DNA of 63,620 nucleotides, the filler included, from Chrysochromulina tobinii (lineage: Eukaryota): NCBI GenBank assembly GCA_001275005.1. It is 5 parts of 5 records of this genome, joined end to end, with 100 filler letters (N's around TTAATTAATTAA, not from the genome) between each part and the next. Parts side by side here need not be neighbours in the genome. Positions count along the whole stretch, not along the records: positions 10,644 to 21,812 come from JWZX01001122.1; 4 more parts are not named here. One strand, given 5' to 3'. A model generated the notes under the pieces. That model did not search any database and was not told where the DNA came from. It was given only the letters and a program-made list of their open reading frames with translations. The position numbers were made by a program, and so were the translations under genes. Positions 10,544 to 61,151 of the stretch are shown one piece after another. Each line of letters starts with the position of its first letter. The stretch's first letter is position 1.

Positions 10544-10643
10544 NNNNNNNNNNNNNNNNNNNNNNNNNNNNNNNNNNNNNNNNNNNNTTAATTAATTAAN
10601 NNNNNNNNNNNNNNNNNNNNNNNNNNNNNNNNNNNNNNNNNNN
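10544..10643. other. Artificial contig-joining spacer
   Basis: 44 N + TTAATTAATTAA + 44 N, identical at four places. Confidence 0.99.
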
Positions 10644-13957: not shown

Positions 13958-15850
13958 TCACGACGACTTGAGACTGTACAAAGTAAAGCTCGAGGTGGCG
14001 CCGGGCTGCAGCGTGAACGTAACGCGAAAGAGCCCGGGGCGGGGCCCACTAAAAGACCCCTCCTCCTCGATGAGTCGTAATGCCGTGCTCGCATAGATCG
14101 AGGCGTTGATCTCCCAACGGCGGCGCAGTGTGAACGTCCGGCTGAACAGGTGGACCTCGTTCCCGTCGCTAATGTTGCTCTCCATGCACACGCTCACGTC
14201 GGCATCGCCATCATAGCTGCGTAGATAACCCACACGCAGAGCACGCGAGGCGTTGAGATGCGCTACAAAGGCCGCTCCTGACGTACGCGCCATAAACCCC
14301 CACTTGTCAGCCGCCTGGGCAGGCTTGGGAGCCTCGCGCCACGCCGTCTCTATGTAGTGCCCGTCAGCCGACCGGCGCAGCATCGTCCACTCCCAACGAG
14401 GCTCTGCAGCCGGCGCCACTTCTGCATCGCCCAGCAGGTTTGGTACGGCGAGCCGCATCGTGCGGCTGCAATTCAAGTTCATCCAGCAGGCGTTGTTCGT
14501 AAAGTCCACAAGGGTGAGTGCCGGCTCGACGAGCTCGATGAGCCTCTCGTGACTGCGCGAGCCGCCCAACGTCTGTGCGTGTGTGGGTGGCAACGTACCT
14601 GCATGCTCCATGAGCCGCGTGCGCTCGGCCGCTGTGAGGTTCTCGATCCGCTTGCGCTCTGCCTGCATGAGGGACACCAGAAAATATGCGCACATCTCGT
14701 GGCCGCGGCGTGACAGGTGCAAGTTATCCACGATGACCTCACGCCGACTCTCATCGGCTCGATGGTGCGGTTTGAGCATAAGCGCGGACGTCAAATTGAG
14801 CGCGGACGTCCAAAAGGACGTTGGAATGCCGTAATGTTGCAACACGTCCTTGTGATATGGCCATCCTCCCCACACTCGCGAGGGTGGAATCCGTTTCGGA
14901 TCGAACCACGCCGACTCAGTGTACAGGAGGGCGGGCGACGTGGGCGAGAGCAACAGCAGCTGGCGCACCAACGCCTCCGTGACAAGGCTGGCGCCGCCCA
15001 AGGAGCTGATGTACCGTTGATAAACTCGTGGATTCGCAACGGCGTTCAGGTCGTTGGTTGCAGTATCCACGATCACCAGGTCGGCGGGGTGTTCGCGGAA
15101 GGCAGGCAGCACGCGCGACTGAAAGTTATCCACGAAGAAGGCGCTGCCTCTGCCTGCGGCACACAGATTACTGAGTCGGTGGCCCGTTGGGCAGCACACG
15201 CTGCTGCGCGAGTTGAGGTATTCGACCAAGGCGTTGGCCCACGTATGATTGATGCCGGAGACGAGCTTGGATCGTATGCGCCTAAAGAAGGAGTATAGTC
15301 CATGCAGGGTCGAATTTGCCAGGGTTCGGCCGGAGGCATACGACGCCCAAAGTTCGTGTTCGCGGGAGGTTTTGGACACGTTCAACGATTCAGCTGGAAC
15401 CCATCCCGCTCTGATGGCCGCAATCATGTGGTCCCTGGTTGGGTCTCCCTCGCCGCACGTGACGCTGCCGCCAATCGTCATTATGTGCAGACAGCAGTCT
15501 GCACTATCCAGCTTTGCGAGCACCGGCGCCAGCCGTGAGAGCGCCCAGCCACCTTTCACCACGTGCGCAGCATCCATCACCTCGTCAGGGAGCATGGTGT
15601 GGGCATCGATCGCTGAATCGGGTCTACCGAAATACTCCAAGGCCTGCTGATGCGTGCCGAGCGGGCTGCTGCTCATCGCAGACACCGCGGGGGGAGCCGT
15701 GCCGGTAACCATTCTCGCGAAGAGCACAGGAACGGTGAGGGGTGTGAAGCTGCTATTAGATGAAGCACACAATTTCGCGTTGCGTACATACCGTACGCGC
15801 GCTAGGCGCTGCCACATCGTGACCTCGAGCGGCACATCGCCGGTCATTTT
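13958..15850 (-). CDS. SGNH/GDSL hydrolase-like protein (putative polysaccharide esterase/acetyltransferase); start uncertain
   Basis: Block I TIGGSVTCG, GRGS, DLVIVDTATND and D.LHLSRRGH. Confidence 0.7.
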   Translation of the reverse strand, partial: KMTGDVPLEVTMWQRLARVRYVRNAKLCASSNSSFTPLTVPVLFARMVTGTAPPAVSAMSSSPLGTHQQALEYFGRPDSAIDAHTMLPDEVMDAAHVVKGGWALSRLAPVLAKLDSADCCLHIMTIGGSVTCGEGDPTRDHMIAAIRAGWVPAESLNVSKTSREHELWASYASGRTLANSTLHGLYSFFRRIRSKLVSGINHTWANALVEYLNSRSSVCCPTGHRLSNLCAAGRGSAFFVDNFQSRVLPAFREHPADLVIVDTATNDLNAVANPRVYQRYISSLGGASLVTEALVRQLLLLSPTSPALLYTESAWFDPKRIPPSRVWGGWPYHKDVLQHYGIPTSFWTSALNLTSALMLKPHHRADESRREVIVDNLHLSRRGHEMCAYFLVSLMQAERKRIENLTAAERTRLMEHAGTLPPTHAQTLGGSRSHERLIELVEPALTLVDFTNNACWMNLNCSRTMRLAVPNLLGDAEVAPAAEPRWEWTMLRRSADGHYIETAWREAPKPAQAADKWGFMARTSGAAFVAHLNASRALRVGYLRSYDGDADVSVCMESNISDGNEVHLFSRTFTLRRRWEINASIYASTALRLIEEEGSFSGPRPGLFRVTFTLQPGATSSFTLYSLKSS

Positions 15851-15961
15851 GCTGAGGACTTTTCTGATTCTGCACATTTTCCATGTTCCGGGTCGAGTGC
15901 GTGTGTTTGATCCTAACGCGGAGGAGAAACACAAGGTCGTGTTTCCCGACCACCCAGACCG

Positions 15962-17797
15962 ATGAGTTCGGCAGATGTGGAGTGGTACCGCAGCCTCGAA
16001 GCGTCGTTCGTAGCTCCAAGCAACGCCTCCTTCAGCACTTGGCCAGACACCCGTCACGAGAGCAGCGCGCATCGCCAAACATCACGTCTGCTGCGGCTTG
16101 CGCAGGCCGGTAAGAACGTGACAATCACTTTGACGGGCGGCTCATCGAGCGCCGCTCGTGAGAGTTTTGCGTATCACTTTGGTCGCCAGCTGGCAGACGC
16201 GCTCAGCCCAAGAGAGAGGGGTGGCAACTGCACGATTGACGCCAGCTCGAGCACGTGGCGCTGTCCAGTTGCTGGGCGCTTCCCCGGACAATTGGTCGAG
16301 ATCGTACCCGCCGCAAATGGGCACACGGGGACTGACTTTGCGGCGCTGTTGATGGACGCTCTTGTCCCGCAGCGCACCGACATCCTAGTTTGGGAGTATG
16401 TCATCAACGACTGGTCGACGCAGCTACTCAACCCTCGCTTTACGGACAACGCGCTTGATCTTTACTTGCGGAGAGCACTGGCAATCAATCCACGCATGGT
16501 CTTCGTCTTCGTGCACTTATGGGTCCCACTCGCTGCCGGGTGCTGGCCCCAATGCGTCATGGGCGGCGGGCCCAAGTTTATGTACGAAGCTGTCACCTCC
16601 ACACTGGAGCGGAACTACCAAGACAGGGGTCTCGACTGGACGTCGATCGACTTCAACGACATCGCGACGCAGCACTACGTGGCTCATCGAGGGAAGCTCA
16701 AGCTGGTCAACGAGACGCACGCCATGTTTTCCGACAAGCAGCATCCGAACCAGAGGACGCACCGCATCATAGGAAGCGTGGTCTGGCAGCACTTTCGTCC
16801 TTTCGTGCTCAACACAAAAAGAGAGGTCACTGCCAATGCCGGCACTGTCATGGACCATGCGCCGGTGGAGAATGTACCTCTGCCGATGCCCCCGACGGGG
16901 CTGCCCGGGGTCTCGAATATGTCAAACGCGTCGGTGGCGGCACGGATGATGTGGCGCTTCCTCTCAAAGCCGGGGCAAGTGCATTCGTGGACGCACTCGC
17001 TCCCCCACAATGGCGACTCTGCCGAGTATGTCTCGTACGGGCTTGCAGGATCACGCTACGCGCAGCCGGGTGACCGGGGCGTGCAGAGCAGCGCTGGGTC
17101 GACATTGATCAAGGTGGCCATCGAGGCCGCCGCGTCACGCTCTGACTCTATGCGATATGCACGGCTGCCCCTGTGTAACGGAGCGACCGGCTTCCTTCGC
17201 CACTCGCTGCAATTCCAAGTGGCCTCGAAACGGCACGGGCACCAAGTGGCCTCGGACCCTCAAACGCCGCGTTTCGTCGGCATCAACTTTGTTGCCAGCC
17301 AGGGCCGCTCACTAGCACCAAAGGCGGCCGCGGAAGACATGGACAGAGGGCTGCTAAACCTGACCCTCGAGTATGTCTGCCAGGCGAGTCCAACGGCGGG
17401 TGGAAACGAAGCTGGCTCAACGACGGCCGGCGACTACCAGCGCAATCAGGGGCGAACTTGCTTCGCGCCGATGGCATCAAGTATGCTTGTCCCGGGCAGC
17501 ATCGAGCTGGCCGACCTGGCGGAAGAACGCAACGTAACTACGGTTGCCGTCGACTTGAGCAGTATAGGGGCTTCCGCTCCCCACCGCAAACTGAGACCCA
17601 CGAGTCCCGATGACCGCCGAACAGGCTTTGCTGTGCTACTACGAGGGATTCACGCTCCTCAAAATTACTTTGAGCTGCCTGACCCGCGCGTAGCATGCGG
17701 ACCTGAGTGCACGGATCCCATTGAGGTCTCTATTCGCGTGTGCCAGCGGACGCTTGAGGGAGCCGCCCAAGGGCTCGGTGCAGTCTTGTTCATATGA
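15962..17797 (+). CDS. SGNH hydrolase-like protein
   Basis: TLTGGSSSA, ANGHTG, DILVWEYVIND, SDKQHPNQRTH; 611-aa ORF. Confidence 0.7.
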   Translation: MSSADVEWYRSLEASFVAPSNASFSTWPDTRHESSAHRQTSRLLRLAQAGKNVTITLTGGSSSAARESFAYHFGRQLADALSPRERGGNCTIDASSSTWRCPVAGRFPGQLVEIVPAANGHTGTDFAALLMDALVPQRTDILVWEYVINDWSTQLLNPRFTDNALDLYLRRALAINPRMVFVFVHLWVPLAAGCWPQCVMGGGPKFMYEAVTSTLERNYQDRGLDWTSIDFNDIATQHYVAHRGKLKLVNETHAMFSDKQHPNQRTHRIIGSVVWQHFRPFVLNTKREVTANAGTVMDHAPVENVPLPMPPTGLPGVSNMSNASVAARMMWRFLSKPGQVHSWTHSLPHNGDSAEYVSYGLAGSRYAQPGDRGVQSSAGSTLIKVAIEAAASRSDSMRYARLPLCNGATGFLRHSLQFQVASKRHGHQVASDPQTPRFVGINFVASQGRSLAPKAAAEDMDRGLLNLTLEYVCQASPTAGGNEAGSTTAGDYQRNQGRTCFAPMASSMLVPGSIELADLAEERNVTTVAVDLSSIGASAPHRKLRPTSPDDRRTGFAVLLRGIHAPQNYFELPDPRVACGPECTDPIEVSIRVCQRTLEGAAQGLGAVLFI

Positions 17798-18002: not shown

Positions 18003-21000
18003 TCAGGCGTCCTCGACTTTGTAGGCCTGGTCGGGGCCGAACAACTGCTCCCAAGAGCTCATGTCGTCGTTGAGGAATCCGTTGCGGTATCCTCGCGGTG
18101 CCAGCTGGAATTTGATTAAGTCGACCCTGGGCGAGACCTCGATCCACCCCTTGGCACCCTGCTCCGCCATCGGGCCCACCTCCTCGAGGAGCTTGTCCTT
18201 GGTGGCGAAGTGGGCGGACATTTTGGGGTCGGTCGCGAACAGAGCACCGCGCTTGTTGCCGAGTGAGATGGCCATGGTGCCCAGGCCTGGGTTCTTGTTG
18301 ATCTGTGGCTGCTGGAACGCGCCCGGCCGCACGCCAGCGGCGACCTGGATGTTCTTGAGGATTGCGAAGGCATGCGCGCCCGCGTCTTGCATCGTGCGCT
18401 CACCCGCGGTGAAACGATCCTTGGCACAGATGTCGCCGCCCGCGTAGATGTGGCCGAGGTTGGGGTGATTGAGCTGTTGCGTATTCTTGGTCCTGATGAA
18501 TCCCTGATCGTCCATCACGCTCGCGAACGCACTGTCGCTGCGCGGGTCCGTGAGGAGCCGGCTATTGGGTTTGTAGCCCGTCGCCCAAAAGACGCGCGCG
18601 TTTGGCGTGCCGACGGTGACGCCGTCCTTCGTGACGGGTCGACCGGACTCGTCGGCGTGAGTAACTTCCTTGGAGTAGTTGACCGCGATGCCGTCCTCCT
18701 CGGCGCACGCCTTGACAAGGGTACTCGCGCCGGGCACGCGTGGCAGGCACTGGGGGCCTCGCGTGATGATCTCGACGGCCTTGTCCGGGAAGAAGGCTTT
18801 GATGTCGAACGCTAGCTCACATCCGACGACACCGCCGCCCACGACGGTGATGGCGGGGGCATCCTTGATGCGCTGGCGCTCGAGGGCGAAGCTCTGCTTG
18901 CGCGCGGCGATCGAGGTGCCCTCCGTCTTGATGTCCGACGTGTACCTCGTCCCCGTGCAGATCACGAGGTAGTCGTACGGCACAACGCGCGAGGCGACGC
19001 CGGAGGAGGTGCCAACGAGGACGTGGTCTCTGCGGACCGCGCTCGCCCAGCCGACGATGAGCTCGCCCTTGCCGCCCATCACATCGACATGGTTGTAGCA
19101 CGACACGTCCCACAGGCCAGCCTGCTCCGCATGCTCGTCAGCGATCAGCCGCAGCACGTTGGGTGTGTACTCGAAGAACTCCTTGGTGTCGACGAGCGTC
19201 ACGTGGAAGGCCTCTGTCTGGATGCCCTTGCCGCGCGTCATCTGGTGCGCGACTATCACGCCGCACGGGCCGCCGCCGAGTATGACTACACGCTTCTTGG
19301 TGGTTACGTCGGCGGACTGTTTCTCTCTCTTGATCGCCGTCCCCGCCGCCGCCTTGTACATCTCCGTGCGCATCGCTTCGACGGCCGAAAGGAGGAGCGC
19401 CTCCACGTGCGGCCGATCGGCCTTGAAGGCCGCCGCCACCTCCATCGCGCCGGCGCTCGCGCTGATGCCCGACGCATTGGGCAGGAGGCCGTAAGCGGAA
19501 TCCATCGAAGCGTAGGCCTTGAGGTCGTTCGACGCCGCGAGGGCCGCGCCGCCATTCAGGCCGGCGAGAGCATCCTCGAGCGTGTGCAGGGCCTTGGAGA
19601 TGAGGAAGGCGCGCTCGGCCTTGTCGGCCGCTGCGAGGCCGCCCGATTGCTTGCCGAGGAGGGACGCGTGGCGGCGGAGTGACTTGGACTGGTCGTGGTC
19701 GCGAAGGATGGACTCGAGGGTAAGGGCGTCCGCATCGCGCCGCTGGCTCTGCGAGAGGATCGACGCCGCCGCCGTCGCCGCCGCCGCCGCCGCCGCCGCC
19801 GCCGAGTCGACCGAGCTCGCCTCCGGTGTGGCCGGTGTGGCCGGCGCGCTCTCGGCGGCCTTGTCGCCCGATTTGGTCATGTCGCCCGATTTGGTAACCA
19901 CCTGGATGGGGTCGCCGACCTCGCGCCCTTTGATGAGCGTCTCCTGCTTGCGCTTCACCGCGCGGCCCTTGACCTGGAACGTGAACTGGCCCGTCGCGAG
20001 CGCCTTCCGCACCGCCGACTCGTCCTCCTCGCCCTCGTCCTCGTCCTCCTCGTTGGCTTCGATGATCTGCTTGCGCACGTCGGCGAAGGTGGTCGCGCCG
20101 CCGACGAGGGCGAGCCCGCCATCGCCGGCCTCATCGACGACGACGGGGACGCACTTCTCAGCGTCAGCTCCGCCCGACAGCGCGATCATCGCTTCGACCG
20201 TCGCCTTGACCGACGTCTGTGCGAACAGCGTCGCGAACGTCGTCGCCGTGACCATCGCGCCCGCGTCCCCGAGCGCATCGCGCACGCCGAGGGCCTTGGC
20301 GATCGTGGACTCGACGCTGCCGAAGCTGGAGCCGCAGGCTTGGGCGAGCGAGGCCTTGAGCATCGCCCACGACACCGTCGCCCCACCGCCCGCCGCCGAC
20401 CACACCCCCCTGGTCTCGCCCTCGATCGACGAGATAGCCGGCGGCGGGCCGAGCTTCTTGCATAGGGCGTCGACAAAGGGATTGAAGTACGAGCGTGTGT
20501 GCTCGACGAGCTGGGCGGGTGGGAAGACCTTGGCGGCGGCCTCGCGGACGTGGATGGTCACGTCCTCTACCTTGATCGTCACCGGCACGTCCGACAGCGA
20601 CGGGAACTGCGCGCCACTCGCCCCCCACGTCGAGCCGTCGACGTGGATGAAGAGGATGGACACGCCGTGGCGGACTGCCTCGACAAACTCGAGGCAGCAC
20701 CAGGCCGAGGCAAAGTAGGCGGGCGTGAGGAAGACGACGAGCGTCTGCGTGTCGCGCACAGCCAGCTTCAGCGAGGGCAGCTCGATCAGGTCGTTCCGGT
20801 CGATGAAGGCGCGGTAGCCGAAATCCGAGAGCCGGTCGTGCACGCGCGCCACAATGTCCTGCGCCTCCGAGCGCTTATGGGAGAGGAAGGCGTCGTAGCG
20901 GATGGCGCGCTCTCCCAGGAGGAAGTCTGTCGACGTCTCCCGAGGCCGCCTCCCGGCGGACGATGCCTCACCGGGCCCGCCCAGACGCTTCCCAAGGTTC

Positions 21001-21659
21001 TCAAGGAACGCGTCCAGGTACGCGTCCATGTGGTCGAGCGCGATCGTGTGACCGAAGACGGCCGCTGCGGCGTCGCGCGGCTTGACGAGGCGGCCCTCGT
21101 CGGTCTGCGCGGTCTCGGGCACGTCGGTGAGCGCGGGGAACGGCATCCCTCGCCACGACGACCCCTCGACAGACACAGGAAGCACCTCCACGCCGTTGAT
21201 CACGGCCTCGCAGAATTCGGCGCAGCAGGCCGGCGAGTCAAAGTACGTCTGCGAGATGAAGCTGACCACGCGGCGGGAGTCGCGGATGCCCTGCTTCTGC
21301 GCGTCGGGCTCCTTGCGCGGATTCGGAATCTTGTATCCCGCCGCTCTCAGATGATCGCGCACCCTCTTCGCCAGCGCGGTCTCCGCCGGCGCCGCGCTCA
21401 CAAACGTGTCCCATTGCGCCTTCCGCAGATCGCTCTCCCTGATGCGCTCGGTGTACGACTTTATCAGATCGTCCCCTTTGATAGGCGGCGACTCCGCATA
21501 CTTGGCACCGGGAGGGCTTGAGGACCCGCAGCCCATGATGACGGCCGCCAAGATGCAGATGAGCGCGACCACAACGGTGATGGCCAGCCCCTCTTCGTTT
21601 GTCAATGTGGGAGGAGGGGGCGGTGGTTGGCCCCAGACGAAGTCTTCCACGCGCGACAT
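18003..21659 (-). CDS. Tandem TIR-domain protein fused to an AIFM2/AMID/FSP1-like FAD/NAD(P)H oxidoreductase, with an N-terminal TM helix
   Basis: TIR2: YDAFLSHKRSEAQ...AFIDRNDL...LVVFLTPAYFASAWCCLEF. TIR1: VVSFISQTYFDSPACCAEF. C-terminus: VVILGGGPCG, YDYLVICTG, VVGGGVVGCELA, FWATGYKPN, IYAGGD. One 1218-aa ORF. Confidence 0.85.
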   Translation of the reverse strand: MSRVEDFVWGQPPPPPPTLTNEEGLAITVVVALICILAAVIMGCGSSSPPGAKYAESPPIKGDDLIKSYTERIRESDLRKAQWDTFVSAAPAETALAKRVRDHLRAAGYKIPNPRKEPDAQKQGIRDSRRVVSFISQTYFDSPACCAEFCEAVINGVEVLPVSVEGSSWRGMPFPALTDVPETAQTDEGRLVKPRDAAAAVFGHTIALDHMDAYLDAFLENLGKRLGGPGEASSAGRRPRETSTDFLLGERAIRYDAFLSHKRSEAQDIVARVHDRLSDFGYRAFIDRNDLIELPSLKLAVRDTQTLVVFLTPAYFASAWCCLEFVEAVRHGVSILFIHVDGSTWGASGAQFPSLSDVPVTIKVEDVTIHVREAAAKVFPPAQLVEHTRSYFNPFVDALCKKLGPPPAISSIEGETRGVWSAAGGGATVSWAMLKASLAQACGSSFGSVESTIAKALGVRDALGDAGAMVTATTFATLFAQTSVKATVEAMIALSGGADAEKCVPVVVDEAGDGGLALVGGATTFADVRKQIIEANEEDEDEGEEDESAVRKALATGQFTFQVKGRAVKRKQETLIKGREVGDPIQVVTKSGDMTKSGDKAAESAPATPATPEASSVDSAAAAAAAAATAAASILSQSQRRDADALTLESILRDHDQSKSLRRHASLLGKQSGGLAAADKAERAFLISKALHTLEDALAGLNGGAALAASNDLKAYASMDSAYGLLPNASGISASAGAMEVAAAFKADRPHVEALLLSAVEAMRTEMYKAAAGTAIKREKQSADVTTKKRVVILGGGPCGVIVAHQMTRGKGIQTEAFHVTLVDTKEFFEYTPNVLRLIADEHAEQAGLWDVSCYNHVDVMGGKGELIVGWASAVRRDHVLVGTSSGVASRVVPYDYLVICTGTRYTSDIKTEGTSIAARKQSFALERQRIKDAPAITVVGGGVVGCELAFDIKAFFPDKAVEIITRGPQCLPRVPGASTLVKACAEEDGIAVNYSKEVTHADESGRPVTKDGVTVGTPNARVFWATGYKPNSRLLTDPRSDSAFASVMDDQGFIRTKNTQQLNHPNLGHIYAGGDICAKDRFTAGERTMQDAGAHAFAILKNIQVAAGVRPGAFQQPQINKNPGLGTMAISLGNKRGALFATDPKMSAHFATKDKLLEEVGPMAEQGAKGWIEVSPRVDLIKFQLAPRGYRNGFLNDDMSSWEQLFGPDQAYKVEDA

Positions 21660-21812
21660 CAGCGACGCGGGAGGAGGAGTGGGCGGAGCCCATTGAACCC
21701 AGTAGGAAGGTGTGACACACAGAGTGAGTCGCGGCGGGTAAGTGAGTCGCGCGGGGATCCCCCGCGAGTCGCGACGCGGGATCGGTCCGTTTCCGCGCGC
21801 GATCTCGCGCGC

Positions 21813-21912
21813 NNNNNNNNNNNNNNNNNNNNNNNNNNNNNNNNNNNNNNNNNNNNTTAATTAATTAANNNNNNNNNNNNNNNNNNNNNNNNNNNNNNNN
21901 NNNNNNNNNNNN
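21813..21912. other. Artificial contig-joining spacer
   Basis: N44-TTAATTAATTAA-N44. Confidence 0.99.
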
Positions 21913-22392: not shown

Positions 22393-24279
22393 TCACAGCT
22401 TGGCAACTTTGGCGCCAGCCTCTGCGCTAGCCACGCGCGTGCAGAGGGCCCGCATCTCTATGAGCACCTTGGAGAGCATCTCGCGGAAGGCCGCGGCAGA
22501 CGTCTCCGGGCATGAGCGCCAGGTGGTGATGATGATGTTCATACGGGTCTCGAGCATCGTGTAGCACGCGCCATACCCGTCGGCTGTCATCGGCGCGAAG
22601 CCGCCGAAGAGCGGCGTGTAGCCGACGTTACTGGTCGAGAGGCGGTAGTTGCCGCCGCCGCCCGCCCGTTTGTAGGCCGGGTCGTTGAACAGGCTCGGGA
22701 GTGGGTCCATCCCCTTGAGGTTCGCGGCGATGTACAGGCCAAGCAGGTGCCGGTCGATGCCCTGTCCGGTGAGCACGCGCTGCAACTGCTCGCCGTGCAC
22801 CTTGCACGCTTCCCTGAGGGCAGCGACCTTGGCGGAGTCCGTGGCGGTGCCGTCGAGCATCGCGTCGCAGAAGGCGACTGACTCGCACGAGAGCGTGCGC
22901 ACCACGTCGGTGCGCCCGTGGAAAAAGGCGCGCGTGTGGCCCGTCTCGTATGTCGCGCAGCTGAGGTTATGCAGCTTCCGCATGGTGAGCTGCAGTGCCA
23001 TCTGCATGAAGAAGTCGGGGTGCATGTTGACACGCTTGATGAAGCCCTTGCCGAAATGAGGGAACTCGAGGTGGCACAGCTCGCAGTCGTCCGCGAGCGC
23101 GCGCACCTCCACCGACGCATGCTCGATGGCGGCGAGCGAACGGGGCCCGAGCCGCCACTCGAGCAGGCGCGGCGGCGCCGCAGACAGTGGCGGCGGCGGT
23201 GCGAGGCATGCGGCACGATCCTTGGCGAGGCGCGCGCGCATGTCGTCGAGTGAGTTGACGAAGAGCGAGACCATTGCCATCGCGTCCACGGGCGAGTGCT
23301 CCGCGTTGATGCCGCACCGGCCATTCTCGAAGATGATCGAGGTGAACGACTTGTCGAACCACTTGTTGCGGCAGCTGCCACCCAAGCACAGCCGCGCGAC
23401 CTCTTCCTTGGTCGCCGGTGCTTCGCGCTCGAAGGCGACGCAGCAGATGGCACTCTCGACGAGTTTGAGCGCCTCGCCCGAGAGCGGATCGGCAAGCAGT
23501 GCCTCGCGCTCCTTGGCCCACACGTCGCGGTTGAGCGCCGTGAGCAGCGACACGTCGGTTCGGCTGCCGACGACGGTGCCATCTTTTGCGATCTTGCCTT
23601 GCTCGATGCTCTGGTCCTCGAGCTGCGAGCGGTCCGCCAGCTCGAGGGTCGCATGCAGCAACGCCTTGAGCTGCGGCAGCGGCAGCGGCTGGCCAGCGCC
23701 GTCGTAAATGCGCACGATGAGCACCGCACCGTTGCGGAGCACCGCGATGTGCTTCGAGTCCGGCACCTGCACAAGCTCGTCGGCGCCCTCGGCAGGCACG
23801 CGCGTCATGCCGAAAATGCGCGTCATCTGGTGCATGTCCAGCGGCTGCCCACGCAGCTTCTCGACTTCGAACTTGCCGGCCTCAATCTTGGAGCGCATGC
23901 GCATCATGCCCTCGAGCATGAGCGCACCGGCAGTCACATTGTCCATTGGCATGCCCCATTCGGGCATGACTCCCGTCCAGTTGATGAAGATAGCCATCGT
24001 GGTGCGAGTGCGCAGATATGCTAGTTGCTCCCACCACTCCTCCATCCAGTTGCGCTCGCTGTCCGCCTTCTCCTCGAGGAAGGTCTGCAGCGCCATGCCA
24101 TCGCCGCTCTCACGGCCAAAATCGGCGACGACGGCCCGTGTGTGGGTGTACTCCGTCTCAGTGAGCAAAGGCTTGACCGCTTTCAGGTAGCGAGCCAGCG
24201 TGTCCGAGAGTGCGGGCAGCGGCAGAGGCGGCAGCTCCGCCTGGGTCGGGAAGAGGGCTTCCGACGTCAATGCCGACAT
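22393..24279 (-). CDS. CROT: Peroxisomal carnitine O-acyltransferase (octanoyltransferase-like)
   Basis: LPPLPLPAL..TLARYL, NWMEEWW, NKWFDK, catalytic EHSPVDA, TYETGHTRAFFHGRT, GQGIDRHL, LSTS, and C-terminal PTS1 -AKL. Confidence 0.9.
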   Translation of the reverse strand: MSALTSEALFPTQAELPPLPLPALSDTLARYLKAVKPLLTETEYTHTRAVVADFGRESGDGMALQTFLEEKADSERNWMEEWWEQLAYLRTRTTMAIFINWTGVMPEWGMPMDNVTAGALMLEGMMRMRSKIEAGKFEVEKLRGQPLDMHQMTRIFGMTRVPAEGADELVQVPDSKHIAVLRNGAVLIVRIYDGAGQPLPLPQLKALLHATLELADRSQLEDQSIEQGKIAKDGTVVGSRTDVSLLTALNRDVWAKEREALLADPLSGEALKLVESAICCVAFEREAPATKEEVARLCLGGSCRNKWFDKSFTSIIFENGRCGINAEHSPVDAMAMVSLFVNSLDDMRARLAKDRAACLAPPPPLSAAPPRLLEWRLGPRSLAAIEHASVEVRALADDCELCHLEFPHFGKGFIKRVNMHPDFFMQMALQLTMRKLHNLSCATYETGHTRAFFHGRTDVVRTLSCESVAFCDAMLDGTATDSAKVAALREACKVHGEQLQRVLTGQGIDRHLLGLYIAANLKGMDPLPSLFNDPAYKRAGGGGNYRLSTSNVGYTPLFGGFAPMTADGYGACYTMLETRMNIIITTWRSCPETSAAAFREMLSKVLIEMRALCTRVASAEAGAKVAKL

Positions 24280-25377: not shown

Positions 25378-25890
25378 CCCGACGACGTGGCACCGGAGCT
25401 CGATGAGCGCTAACGGTGCGTCAACGATGCCGTGCTCCCTTGATCCTGTGGAGAAATGATGCGACCCGCGGCAAAGCTTCTCTTGAACCGAGGAGACTCG
25501 CGAGGCTCGTGGAGGCCCTAGGATCAAGGCACGGCCGTAACGGCCGAGAGTTTGCGGCGATTCCAAAATGAGGTGCACACATCGCTGGGTCGCCGTGCCT
25601 CATCGCCTCATCGGCCCCGCACCCTTTACAAAATATGGGGGTCCAGGGGTCCCCGAGCTAGTGGCAACCGCATCTGTATGTACGCCGGTCCGGTGTCTTG
25701 GGTGTTCGAAATAACTTATTCCACGCACAGATCGCGGCCCTACGGTGCCGGTTTTATGGCGACTGGGTGCCGTCGAAGGCAAACCCTTCCGACGTGCCCA
25801 CAAGGGCGGAGCGCGCGCTACCGCGAGATACAAGTACCACCATGGCGATGGTGCTCTGTTCACACTAGGGAAGAGTTCCCAGAGGGTGCA

Positions 25891-28090
25891 CATGCAGGGC
25901 AGCAAGGCCAGCAAGCTGCCTCCCCAGCATGCGGCTAAGCTGCCGGCCCAACCGAAAATAGAGAAGCCCGGCAGTGACTTTTCAACAGCGCCGGGCCAGA
26001 CGGCCAAGCTACCGCGGACGCACACGGCCAAGCCGCCGAAGAAAGAGCCATCAACCAAGAATCTGGCTGTGTCGATCGCTATGCAGGCGACGCCGAGGGC
26101 GAAGCAAACGAGACCGAGAGCGAAGCAGGCTACACCGAGAGTGAATACAGCTGCGCCGAAAGTGCAGCACGCGGTGCCGAGAGCAAAGCAGGTTGTGCCA
26201 AGAGCGCAGCAGGCGATAGCGAAGCAGCCGATGCCTTTAGCGAGGCAGGCGAGGCCGATAGGGAAGCAGGCAGTGCCGATAGCGACGGGCTGTCCTGCAC
26301 CGCGGACGTGCTTGTTGCTCGACGAGGCGAGTCCATCTCCGGTAGCGACGGGCTGTGTCGGATCGAGCTCTGCGCTCGTCCACAATAGCCCATCTCCCAT
26401 CGCGATGCTGCTCGATTGTCAAGATGCGCTCGAGACGTGCCTTGCTTTTCTCGACATCGAGGAGCTGTGCGCCGCAAAGGCGGTCTGCTCGACGTTTGCC
26501 TACACGGCGCGCGTGCTCTTACGAAGTGTGACCTATCGCGGCACGCACATGCGCTTGCACGAGATCCTCGAGGCGCCCTGGAGTGCGCGATCGTCGCGCG
26601 CTGCCATCGTGTCCAGGCTCGCCGTGCTTCCCGAGGGCGAGCTGCTGCGCGCCGATGGGCCGAGCCGACTGCCGCCCCTGCATGCGGCTGTGCAGCGGCA
26701 CGCACCGGCGCCTGTGATCGAGGTGCTCGCCACGGCGCTGGGTGGCGCGGCGGCGCGACGACGCGTGCATGGCCAACTGCCCGTGCACCTCGCGGCGGAG
26801 ATCGGGTCCGCCACGGCCTTGTCGGTGCTGCTCGGCGCCTCTCCCGAGGATGCCCGCCAGCGTGATGCCGACGGGAAGCTGCCTCTCCATCACGCGGCCG
26901 CCCGGGCACAGGGGGACGGCAGCGCTGACAGCACTGCGGTGGTGGCGCTGCTGCTGAGCGCGCACAGGGCCAGTGCCGCCGAGTGGGATCTGAATGGCAT
27001 GCTGCCGCTTCACGTGGCATGCCTGCACCGGGCGCCGGTTGCGCTCGTCGAGGCGCTCCTGCGCGCCTACCCCGAGGGCGCCGAGCATGAGAGCGCTCAT
27101 CACGGCGCTGGGCACGAGAGCCTCGACGGCTGGATCCCGCTGCACCTCGCGCTGATCTCGCAGAGCTCGCGCGCCGTGGTGAGCGCCCTCCTCGCGGCGC
27201 ACCCGGAGAGCGCCTCGAAGCGCTCGGACTCTTTTGGGTGCGTCGCGCTCCACTTTGCATGCAAGCACTGTGCCGGCGCACCGCGCATCATCGACGACCT
27301 TCTCGCCGCCTACCCTGACGCATGCCGGCTGGCTGACGCGGACGGACGGCTGCCGCTGCATTTGGCGGCGGCGCACCAACCAGAAGAATGCACGATCGCC
27401 GCGCTGCTCGACGCGCAGCCCGAAGCGACGGCCATCGCGGACGTGGATGACAACCTTCCACTGCACTGCGCTGCGGCCAGCCACGCCTCCGCTGCTGTCG
27501 TGCGCCGGCTGGCGAGCGCCTTCCCGAGCGCTCTGCACATCGCAGGTCCAGGCGGCTGTCTACCGGTACACCTCGCGGTCCGGAACGGTGCACCTCTGGA
27601 CACACTGCTCTCGCTGCTGCAGGCGGCACCCTCCGCTGTCACTCGTCGCGCCGACAACGGTGCACTCCCCCTCCACGAGGCCATCGAGCGTGGCGCCTCT
27701 GCCGCCATCATCGACGCCCTCCTTCACTACGACGCCCAGGCAGCCCGCAGCCGCGCGCGATGCGGGCGCCTCCCTCTCGAACTGCTCGCACGCCGCGGCC
27801 TCCTTGTCTGCGATGCAGTGGACGTCAGCACCCGCCGCAGCACGCGCGGCTGCTGCGGCGGCTCCGGTGGCCATGCCGCTGGAGACGCTGGCGCGTGCAC
27901 CCACCGGGCTGAAGAGGTGATCAACCGTGCACTGGAGCGCTGGAGCGTCGTGCGCGCCACCCTCGGGCGCTCGTACCAATACGCTTCCCCATCATCCCCA
28001 TCCGCCTCGCACCAGCACAGCCTCAGCAGCATGGAGCTCCAGTCCGGGCCAGACGGCCGTGGCCGTGGCCGACGGAGGACCAACTGGTGA
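25891..28090 (+). CDS. F-box-like plus ankyrin-repeat protein with a basic N-terminal 7-aa repeat region
   Basis: LLDCQDALETCLAFLDIEELCAAKAVCSTF (F-box-like); about 10 G.LPLH.A repeats; PRAKQxx repeats at about 26090-26285. Start uncertain. Confidence 0.75.
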
Positions 28091-41389: not shown

Positions 41390-41489
41390 NNNNNNNNNNN
41401 NNNNNNNNNNNNNNNNNNNNNNNNNNNNNNNNNTTAATTAATTAANNNNNNNNNNNNNNNNNNNNNNNNNNNNNNNNNNNNNNNNNNNN
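41390..41489. other. Artificial contig-joining spacer
   Basis: N44-TTAATTAATTAA-N44. Confidence 0.99.
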
Positions 41490-61051: not shown

Positions 61052-61151
61052 NNNNNNNNNNNNNNNNNNNNNNNNNNNNNNNNNNNNNNNNNNNNTTAAT
61101 TAATTAANNNNNNNNNNNNNNNNNNNNNNNNNNNNNNNNNNNNNNNNNNNN
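61052..61151. other. Artificial contig-joining spacer
   Basis: N44-TTAATTAATTAA-N44. Confidence 0.99.

What the first reader, a model, noticed from the sequence alone, without database searches (positions are those of the whole stretch)
18003..21659. Membrane-anchored tandem-TIR + FSP1/AIFM2-type oxidoreductase fusion: candidate NAD-centred immune or cell-death switch
Seen: one uninterrupted 1218-aa ORF with an N-terminal TM helix, two TIR domains (about 21350-20990, lacking a clear first strand, and about 20900-20450, complete) and a full C-terminal pyridine nucleotide-disulfide oxidoreductase (about 19300-18006) with both GxGxxG motifs. Both TIRs keep the Glu at the catalytic position (ACCAE, WCCLE). 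Established: TIR domains in SARM1, plant TNLs and Thoeris ThsB cleave NAD+ through this Glu, and AIFM2/FSP1 enzymes oxidise NAD(P)H at membranes and regulate cell death. Inference: the protein could generate NAD+ and consume it in cis, or gate TIR signalling by redox state. I do not know this architecture from characterised proteins.
Basis: partly seen in the sequence, partly recalled or inferred. Interest (0 to 1): 0.88.

Follow-up and report, generated by a model that had tools for sequence, protein, structure and literature searches.

The report
Algal TIR–RGS–FSP1 membrane fusion protein
A haptophyte alga has a real, conserved gene that joins two immune-type TIR domains (only one likely active) to a domain with a predicted G-protein-regulator (RGS) fold and to an enzyme resembling the human lipid-antioxidant FSP1, behind a likely membrane anchor, so it may link membrane signalling and redox state to an NAD-derived messenger.

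Summary
The 1218-aa ORF is real and belongs to a family conserved at 43-59% identity across several lineages; cluster-mates are named Chrysochromulina 'apoptosis inducing factor'. Two TIRs and an FSP1-like flavoprotein are confirmed, with three corrections. (1) TIR1 has its first strand but is degenerate (Trp 0 of 20 copies, BB-loop Asp 0 of 20); TIR2 keeps the full WxxxE site, so probably only TIR2 is a cyclising NADase. (2) The ancestral anchor is an MGCxxS lipid-anchor motif at Met42; the TM helix is a local extension. (3) The unread middle holds three predicted folds: Cbl-type EF-hand, ubiquitin-like and RGS. The nearest outside relative of the oxidoreductase is a Fonticula RGS-oxidoreductase, an architecture listed in a 2014 supplement. 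So a TIR module was added to an older RGS-oxidoreductase, then duplicated; TIR-less and oxidoreductase-less paralogues also exist. Best reading: a membrane signalling enzyme in which clustering switches on TIR2 to make a cyclic-ADPR-type messenger. NAD+ supply in cis is weakly supported; an immune or death role is untested. I found no paper describing the fusion in 10 searches.

The parts
18003..21659 (-). Whole ORF, 1218 aa (1177 aa if started at Met42)
   Evidence: RNA-library contigs; full-length relatives
21537..21590 (-). Hydrophobic helix (residues 24-41); extension found only in the two closest clusters
   Evidence: Met42 is Lys in P0003/P0005, so that lineage can only use the longer start
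21519..21536 (-). MGCGSS at Met42: MGxxxS myristoylation-type motif with Cys3; the likely ancestral start
   Evidence: 17 of 22 hand-picked N-termini carry the motif; in-frame stop and no Met upstream in L008, L010 and both L011 genes; AUG context A-3/G+4 versus C-3/T+4 at Met1
20976..21422 (-). TIR1 (residues 80-228): complete fold, Glu148 kept, Trp and BB-loop motif lost
20445..20906 (-). TIR2 (residues 252-405): FLSHKR, FIDRND and W320xxxE324 near-invariant; likely the active NADase
20175..20444 (-). Predicted Cbl-type EF-hand-like domain (residues 406-495)
   Evidence: model; VIA match to 6xar_A 175-263, Z 6.7, 85 aligned, rmsd 3.1; one row only, no profile match
19878..20174 (-). Predicted ubiquitin-like (beta-grasp) domain with an acidic loop (residues 496-594)
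   Evidence: VIA Z 6.3-7.8 to many ubiquitin-like chains; Foldseek prob up to 0.96 but E above 0.1
19758..19877 (-). Low-complexity Ala-rich linker; one public gene model (P0011) omits residues 586-636
   Evidence: not bridged by a listed RNA contig, no joint seen
19341..19757 (-). Predicted RGS-fold domain (residues about 635-773), strongly diverged
   Evidence: VIA: RGS4 Z 8.8 (108 of 116 aligned, rmsd 3.7), RGS3 8.5, SNX25 RGS 8.5, p115RhoGEF 7.8, Axin 7.5; nearest outgroup has Pfam RGS at the same place; no Pfam hit
18006..19298 (-). FSP1/AIFM2-like flavoprotein (residues 788-1218): GxGxxG, D824, GxGxxGxE948, D952, W1025xxG, GD1076
   Evidence: motif definitions from PMC10643123 (passages)

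Best explanation
This is likely a membrane-anchored signalling enzyme: an older RGS-fold plus FSP1-like oxidoreductase that gained a TIR module, in which TIR2 would cleave NAD+ into a cyclic-ADPR-type messenger when the protein clusters at the membrane, while the degenerate TIR1 likely serves as a non-cyclising partner or brake. Shown: domain order, motif conservation, family history, purifying selection. Predicted from models: the EF-hand-like, ubiquitin-like and RGS folds. Inferred: lipid anchoring at Met42; NAD(P)H:quinone reductase activity; TIR2 catalysis and product; clustering supplied by the flavoprotein dimer (FSP1 is a dimer) and tuned by partners of the RGS and ubiquitin-like domains or by the flavin's redox state. 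The trigger and the physiological output are unknown; stress or defence signalling is my guess.
For: TIR2 site: Glu 16 of 16, Trp 14 of 16, BB-loop Phe and Asp 16 of 16; TIR1: Glu 18 of 20, Trp 0 of 20, Asp 0 of 20 (rows include near-copies). The WxxxE Trp is needed for ADPR cyclisation in bacterial TIRs (10.1101/2022.05.07.491051, passages). TIR tree: single-TIR forms branch first, TIR1 is one clade (100/100) on a long stem of 0.65. Oxidoreductase tree: the 14-row family (100/98) nests with P0234 (97/81) and the Fonticula RGS protein P0233 (99/96); P0234's start aligns with P0233's RGS. RGS chains are 3 of the top 4 VIA rows. All tested FSP1 catalytic motifs except the K355 equivalent are present. 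dN/dS 0.13-0.35 in 10 domain pairs among L007-L012. An anchor recurs in different forms: MGC motif, TM helix here, and a separate hydrophobic start in L013. E. huxleyi has diversified G-alpha proteins (PMC3971589, passages).
Against: No activity was measured. The RGS call is structural and phylogenetic: Z under about 13 for helical bundles can reflect a common arrangement, sequence support is weak (HMM 4.1 bits, 1 of 500 shuffles as high; HHalign probability 6%; global score above 150 of 150 shuffles but probability 0.7%), and many RGS domains are not GAPs. The full-length model has pTM 0.36 and shows no domain contacts. TIR-less (P0223, P0226) and oxidoreductase-less (L011 small gene) paralogues show the halves need not be linked. 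Dictyostelium TirB and TirD keep the Glu yet showed no NAD+ processing (10.64898/2026.04.30.722052), so a Glu is not proof.
Confidence: 0.42

Rival explanations
1. SARM1-like immune or death executioner: on infection TIR2 drains NAD+ and the cell dies or stalls; the oxidoreductase is the metabolic sensor or adds peroxide.
For: TIR genes are induced by virus in the haptophyte G. huxleyi (PMC12489294, section 20); protist TIRs can be active NADases (10.64898/2026.04.20.719644, passages and section 9); FSP1 makes H2O2 (PMC10516921, passages); TIR2 has weak PADLOC matches to ThsB and SAVED-TIR models (E 4e-6 to 9e-3).
Against: No LRR, NB-ARC, ARM or SAM match; purifying selection in every domain tested; none of the 12 TIR_2 rows seen in that paper's Table S9 (15 genes) lists an oxidoreductase; the conserved Trp favours a cyclic product over plain depletion.
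Confidence: 0.22
2. Mainly a membrane quinone reductase (FSP1-like antioxidant) whose TIR, EF-hand-like, ubiquitin-like and RGS domains are all non-catalytic adaptors.
For: TIR-less MGC-RGS-oxidoreductase paralogues exist, one nested inside TIR-bearing lineages (P0226); TIR1 and the small paralogues have degraded sites; the RGS domain is strongly diverged.
Against: The most conserved stretch of TIR2 is exactly the NAD-site motifs, also in the early-branching single-TIR forms (Trp 6 of 6).
Confidence: 0.2
3. One reading: the oxidoreductase makes NAD+ from NADH and hands it to the TIRs, so the protein burns the NAD pool.
For: Both activities use the same dinucleotide and sit in one chain.
Against: The position that is Glu in NADH-specific NDH-2 and His174 in FSP1, which uses NADH and NADPH alike, is Thr966 followed by Arg, so no NADH preference is predicted; cytosolic NAD is mostly oxidised already (own knowledge); about 380 residues separate the two enzymes; the halves occur apart.
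Confidence: 0.1
4. Misassembly or two adjacent genes read as one.
For: No listed RNA contig crosses the repeat at 19758-19812; a scaffold gap lies 150 bases upstream.
Against: The same fusion is in frame in independent assemblies from 98% down to 37-44% identity.
Confidence: 0.02

Closest known systems
FSP1/AIFM2 (human, chicken; PDB 8wik, 8jsc, 9ift)
   Same: Best sequence and fold matches of the C-terminal domain (E 2e-8; top five Foldseek rows); same catalytic motifs; MGxxxS motif.
   Different: About 23% identity; FSP1 is the enzyme alone; here 740 extra residues with five domains and a longer C-terminus; K355 equivalent not placed; orthology not tested.
RGS//Pyr_redox_2 proteins (Fonticula alba H696_04656 = P0233; architecture listed in PMC3971589 supplementary file 3)
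   Same: RGS fold directly before the oxidoreductase, similar spacing (21 versus 19 residues); nearest outgroup in the tree.
   Different: No TIR, EF-hand-like or ubiquitin-like part; its RGS is canonical by Pfam (E 1e-10). I saw only the label in a figure's text, not which taxa carry it, and no functional work.
SARM1
   Same: Membrane-associated eukaryotic protein with a TIR NADase-type site that would need clustering.
   Different: No ARM or SAM match; TIR N-terminal and duplicated; extra redox enzyme.
Plant TIR domains (RUN1, RPV1, SNC1) and Thoeris ThsB
   Same: Best PDB sequence matches of TIR2 (E 0.003-0.007); WxxxE motif.
   Different: No NB-ARC/LRR, no ThsA partner; matches are weak and do not fix the product.
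Virus-responsive TIR proteins of Gephyrocapsa huxleyi (PMC12489294) and Dictyostelium TirC
   Same: Protist TIRs with the Glu, many with membrane anchors.
   Different: No oxidoreductase listed in the 12 rows seen; different TIR motifs; TirC is a small TIR-only protein of bacterial CAP12 origin.

Membership tests
Enzymatic TIR NADases (SARM1, plant TNL, ThsB type) | TIR fold | tested here: met
   Pfam TIR_2 above cut-off for both domains; alpha/beta pattern in model
Enzymatic TIR NADases (SARM1, plant TNL, ThsB type) | Catalytic Glu in helix C | tested here: met
   E324 aligns with the RUN1 Glu; 16 of 16 TIR2, 18 of 20 TIR1
Cyclising TIRs (WxxxE) | Aromatic residue four before the Glu, in TIR2 | tested here: met
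   W320; 14 of 16; rule
Cyclising TIRs (WxxxE) | Aromatic residue four before the Glu, in TIR1 | tested here: not met
   Ala144; 0 of 20
Enzymatic TIR NADases (SARM1, plant TNL, ThsB type) | Glu-dependent NAD+ cleavage on oligomerisation | not testable with these tools
   needs assay
SARM1 orthologues | ARM and tandem SAM domains before a C-terminal TIR | tested here: not met
   Pfam scan; middle folds are different
Thoeris | Prokaryotic ThsB with a ThsA effector next to it | tested here: not met
   eukaryotic gene; neighbours are lipase-like and acyltransferase genes; only weak ThsB model hits; no prokaryotic relative of the TIR patterns
FSP1/AIFM2 | GxGxxG, GxGxxGxE, WxxG and GD motifs; D41 and E160 equivalents | tested here: met
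   G795, E948, D952, W1025-G1028, D1076, D824
FSP1/AIFM2 | N-terminal MGxxxS myristoylation motif | tested here: inconclusive
   MGCGSS present, but at Met42; depends on which AUG is used
FSP1/AIFM2 | K355 equivalent in the C-terminal domain | tested here: inconclusive
   alignment ends at residue 1138; model pLDDT under 50 there
FSP1/AIFM2 | Groups with FSP1 in a tree | not tested
   no FSP1 sequence was at hand for the tree
FSP1/AIFM2 | NAD(P)H:quinone reductase activity, dimer | not testable with these tools
   needs assay
RGS domains | RGS helical fold | tested here: met
   five RGS-family chains at Z 7.5-8.8 covering most of the domain; helical-bundle caveat applies
RGS domains | Match to the Pfam RGS profile | tested here: not met
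   no family at E up to 10 for the domain alone
RGS domains | G-alpha binding or GAP activity | not tested
   contact residues not mapped; needs assay
RGS//Pyr_redox_2 proteins | RGS directly before this oxidoreductase clade | tested here: met

The most novel reading that the evidence does not exclude
A TIR NADase whose on-switch is wired, in one chain, to heterotrimeric G-protein signalling (through the RGS fold) and to membrane quinone or NAD(P)H redox state (through the FSP1-like dimer), with a built-in pseudo-TIR brake and small lipid-anchored TIR-ubiquitin-like paralogues as dedicated adaptors: a new activation logic for TIR signalling and a first physical link between TIR nucleotide messengers and ferroptosis-type lipid-peroxide control in algae.
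Probability: 0.18. Interest if true: 0.88.

Novelty: new variant of a known kind. Interest (0 to 1): 0.64.

Why it matters
Known TIR enzymes are switched on by LRR/NB-ARC, ARM/SAM, STING or Argonaute modules (own knowledge). A TIR on an RGS-oxidoreductase suggests a different input, G-protein or redox. Haptophyte blooms end in virus attack and oxidative death, and their TIR pathways are uncharacterised. This family gives a compact test system with natural controls: one active-type and one degenerate TIR in the same chain, single-TIR ancestors, TIR-less paralogues and oxidoreductase-less paralogues. Databases name it only 'apoptosis inducing factor' or 'NADH dehydrogenase'.

Tried and rejected
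No own genome is held, so copy number in this genome was not counted. Viral contigs: no relative with the family alignment (321 pattern matches, none confirmed); with TIR2 alone one 14-residue match, taken as chance. Prokaryotic genomes: no relative with the TIR patterns (139 matches, none confirmed); the oxidoreductase alone finds 21-34% matches, best in Pace-/Woesearchaeota, from 11 of 64 parts scanned. Profile searches of the three middle domains against PDB sequences and Pfam gave nothing meaningful; ESM Atlas gave only sub-0.9 leads for the ubiquitin-like part and none for the RGS part. Idea that the ubiquitin-like domain self-associates like PB1/DIX: the complex job gave no answer (score 0.00, alignment not used); it is evidence neither way. 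The full-length model was too weak for domain contacts. RNA depth was not used to rank genes, and no true silent control stretch was laid (the region is gene-dense). Three look-ups of earlier scan findings returned nothing. The C. tobin genome paper's main text has no hit for TIR, Toll, apoptosis or myristoyl (PMC4580454, find); its supplements were not searched. bioRxiv supplements are closed; the TIR tables of 10.64898/2026.04.20.719644 and 10.64898/2026.04.30.722052 may contain this protein's TIR. File 1 of the PMC3971589 supplements was not searchable.
Full report
Observation. The ORF at 18003-21659 (-) is 1218 codons without a stop. Pfam finds TIR_2 and Pyr_redox_2; cut out singly, both TIRs pass the cut-off (37.1 and 40.9 bits) and align end to end at 37% identity. 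The best solved relatives of the C-terminal part are FSP1 by sequence (E 2e-8) and by fold.

Is it one gene? Eighteen runs hold the stretch, 14 on record as RNA. Seven RNA runs and one run of unknown kind were laid: contigs join TIR1 to TIR2 (20457-21695) and the RGS part to the oxidoreductase (18341-19516), show no splice joint, and in five RNA runs end at 21689-21705, upstream of Met1. None listed crosses the Ala-rich repeat at 19758-19812, contigs cannot show a start, and DNA in the libraries is not excluded. One public model (P0011) starts at Met42 and omits residues 586-636, in frame. The stronger argument is conservation: the same order of domains stands in P0002-P0004, P0078, L007, L010 and L013, from 98% down to 37-44% identity. 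Members of the window protein's 90% cluster are named from Chrysochromulina tobinii and C. parva; most other members are unnamed metagenome proteins, so the range beyond this genus is my inference from their GC content and similarity.

The anchor. Distant relatives begin at a motif that aligns with Met42. Of 22 hand-picked N-termini, 17 carry MG(C/G)xxS, which fits the MGxxxS myristoylation motif given for FSP1 (PMC10643123, passages); Cys3 as a palmitoylation site is my own knowledge. In L008, L010 and both L011 genes an in-frame stop lies upstream with no Met between, and in the window Met42 has the better AUG context. The TM helix is still likely real in this lineage: it is conserved in the two closest clusters, and P0003/P0005 have Lys in place of Met42. 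L013 has a different hydrophobic start. So the family keeps an anchor but changes its kind.

The two TIRs differ. In 16 TIR2 copies Ser-His, the BB-loop Phe and Asp and the Glu are invariant and the Trp is in 14; in 20 TIR1 copies the Glu is in 18 but the Trp and the Asp in none (near-copies included, labels by best BLAST). E324 matches the RUN1 Glu. An aromatic residue at the Trp position marked every cyclising TIR in one survey and was needed for cyclisation (10.1101/2022.05.07.491051, passages). A 54-row TIR tree (7 near-duplicates and pieces under 115 residues dropped) puts single-TIR forms first, TIR1 as one clade on a long stem, and the small paralogues with TIR2 (95/94): one duplication, then decay of TIR1's site. 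TIR1 is still under purifying selection (dN/dS 0.16 in the one pair tested; 0.13-0.35 over all 10 pairs).

The middle. A model of residues 404-790 from 17 rows has pLDDT 84. Foldseek gave ubiquitin-like rows without significant E-values. VIA against 48,161 chains gave RGS chains for 645-768 (RGS4 Z 8.8, RGS3 8.5, SNX25 8.5, p115RhoGEF 7.8, Axin 7.5; the top row, Z 9.3, is an unnamed chain of an axonemal entry), ubiquitin-like chains for 496-594, and one row for 406-495, the Cbl TKB residues 175-263 (Z 6.7); that this range is Cbl's EF-hand is recalled. These Z values are middling, and sequence support for RGS is weak. Independent support comes from the oxidoreductase: its nearest named relative is a Fonticula alba protein with a Pfam RGS domain right before it, and a 39-row tree (prokaryote-like loci thinned to every third; no FSP1 row) joins the family to it at 99/96, with P0234 between, whose cut start aligns with that RGS. 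[quoted passage not shown]

History, as inferred. An RGS-oxidoreductase gained anchor, TIR, EF-hand-like and ubiquitin-like parts (single-TIR forms L013, P0085); the TIR was duplicated; derivatives lost the TIR half (P0223/L006, P0226, the latter nested at 100/100 among tandem-TIR lineages) or the enzyme half (about 320-aa MGC-TIR-ubiquitin-like proteins P0089, P0109, P0118; in L011 one lies head to head with the large gene, starts 325 bases apart).

Mechanism. All FSP1 motifs I could place are present. FSP1 is a dimer, reduces quinones, makes H2O2 and uses NADH and NADPH alike because it lacks the NDH-2 Glu (PMC10516921, passages); that position is Thr966 here. TIR enzymes need oligomerisation. 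I therefore read the protein as a membrane signalling enzyme in which clustering, likely through the flavoprotein dimer and partners of the RGS and ubiquitin-like domains, turns on TIR2 to make a cyclic-ADPR-type messenger (0.42). Rivals: death executioner (0.22), antioxidant with inert adaptors (0.20), NAD+ supply in cis (0.10), artefact (0.02). Nothing here was assayed, and a kept Glu does not guarantee activity (TirB and TirD).

Novelty. Ten literature searches showed no paper on a TIR fused to an FSP1-like or RGS-oxidoreductase; the library lacks most subscription papers and bioRxiv supplements are closed. Papers seen: PMC12489294 (passages, section 20, supplement rows), 10.64898/2026.10.11.758280 (passages), 10.64898/2026.04.20.719644 (passages, section 9), 10.64898/2026.04.30.722052 (passages, section 5), PMC10643123, PMC10516921, 10.1101/2022.05.07.491051 (passages), PMC3971589 (passages, supplement 3 part 2), PMC4580454 (term search, no hits). 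Every part is a known fold and protist TIR architectures are diverse, so I file it as a new variant of a known kind, with an unusual and testable combination. Interest 0.64.

Noticed in passing
window 21704-21912: Upstream of 21703 the window departs from the allele in L003 and run X15: a GC-rich palindromic repeat replaces sequence that in L003 gives an earlier in-frame Met and leads to a head-to-head PIH1 gene. A scaffold gap follows, so the carnitine acyltransferase at 22393-24279 may not be the true neighbour.
   Followed up: partly
window 10544-10643, 21813-21912, 41390-41489, 61052-61151: Four gaps of the same build (two N runs around 12 bases; TTAATTAATTAA at 21857), an assembly spacer rather than biology.
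   Followed up: no
L011:1801-2757 (-) and 3083 onward (+): Small MGC-TIR-ubiquitin-like gene head to head with the large gene; its TIR lacks the Trp and BB-loop motif. Candidate adaptor or decoy.
   Followed up: partly
L006:5707-7740: TIR-less paralogue (MGCGAS, RGS-like, oxidoreductase), 54% identical over residues 634-1217.
   Followed up: partly
L075-L079: The closest prokaryotic relatives of the oxidoreductase in the part scanned are from Pacearchaeota and Woesearchaeota (25-29% identity), odd for reduced DPANN genomes.
   Followed up: no
P0102, P0103 (protein hits): PUB-kinase-TIR proteins whose TIR is the nearest outgroup of this family's TIR; another undescribed-looking architecture.
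   Followed up: no
P0085 residues 15-80: Between an MGGGAS start and the single TIR lies a stretch that looks like a SAM domain from recall; Pfam gave no hit.
   Followed up: partly
window 13958-17797: Two divergent genes of about 610-700 aa; the minus-strand one has weak GDSL lipase matches, the plus-strand one no Pfam match though it shows similar motifs by eye.
   Followed up: no
window 25745-28090: Ankyrin-repeat protein with a weak F-box match.
   Followed up: no
PMC12489294 Table S2, gene cogent4614_i1: A G. huxleyi gene labelled AIFM2 sits in expression cluster 4, the cluster of the resistance TIR gene 373c_47547; its Pfam list looks FMO-like and it was not compared with this protein.
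   Followed up: no
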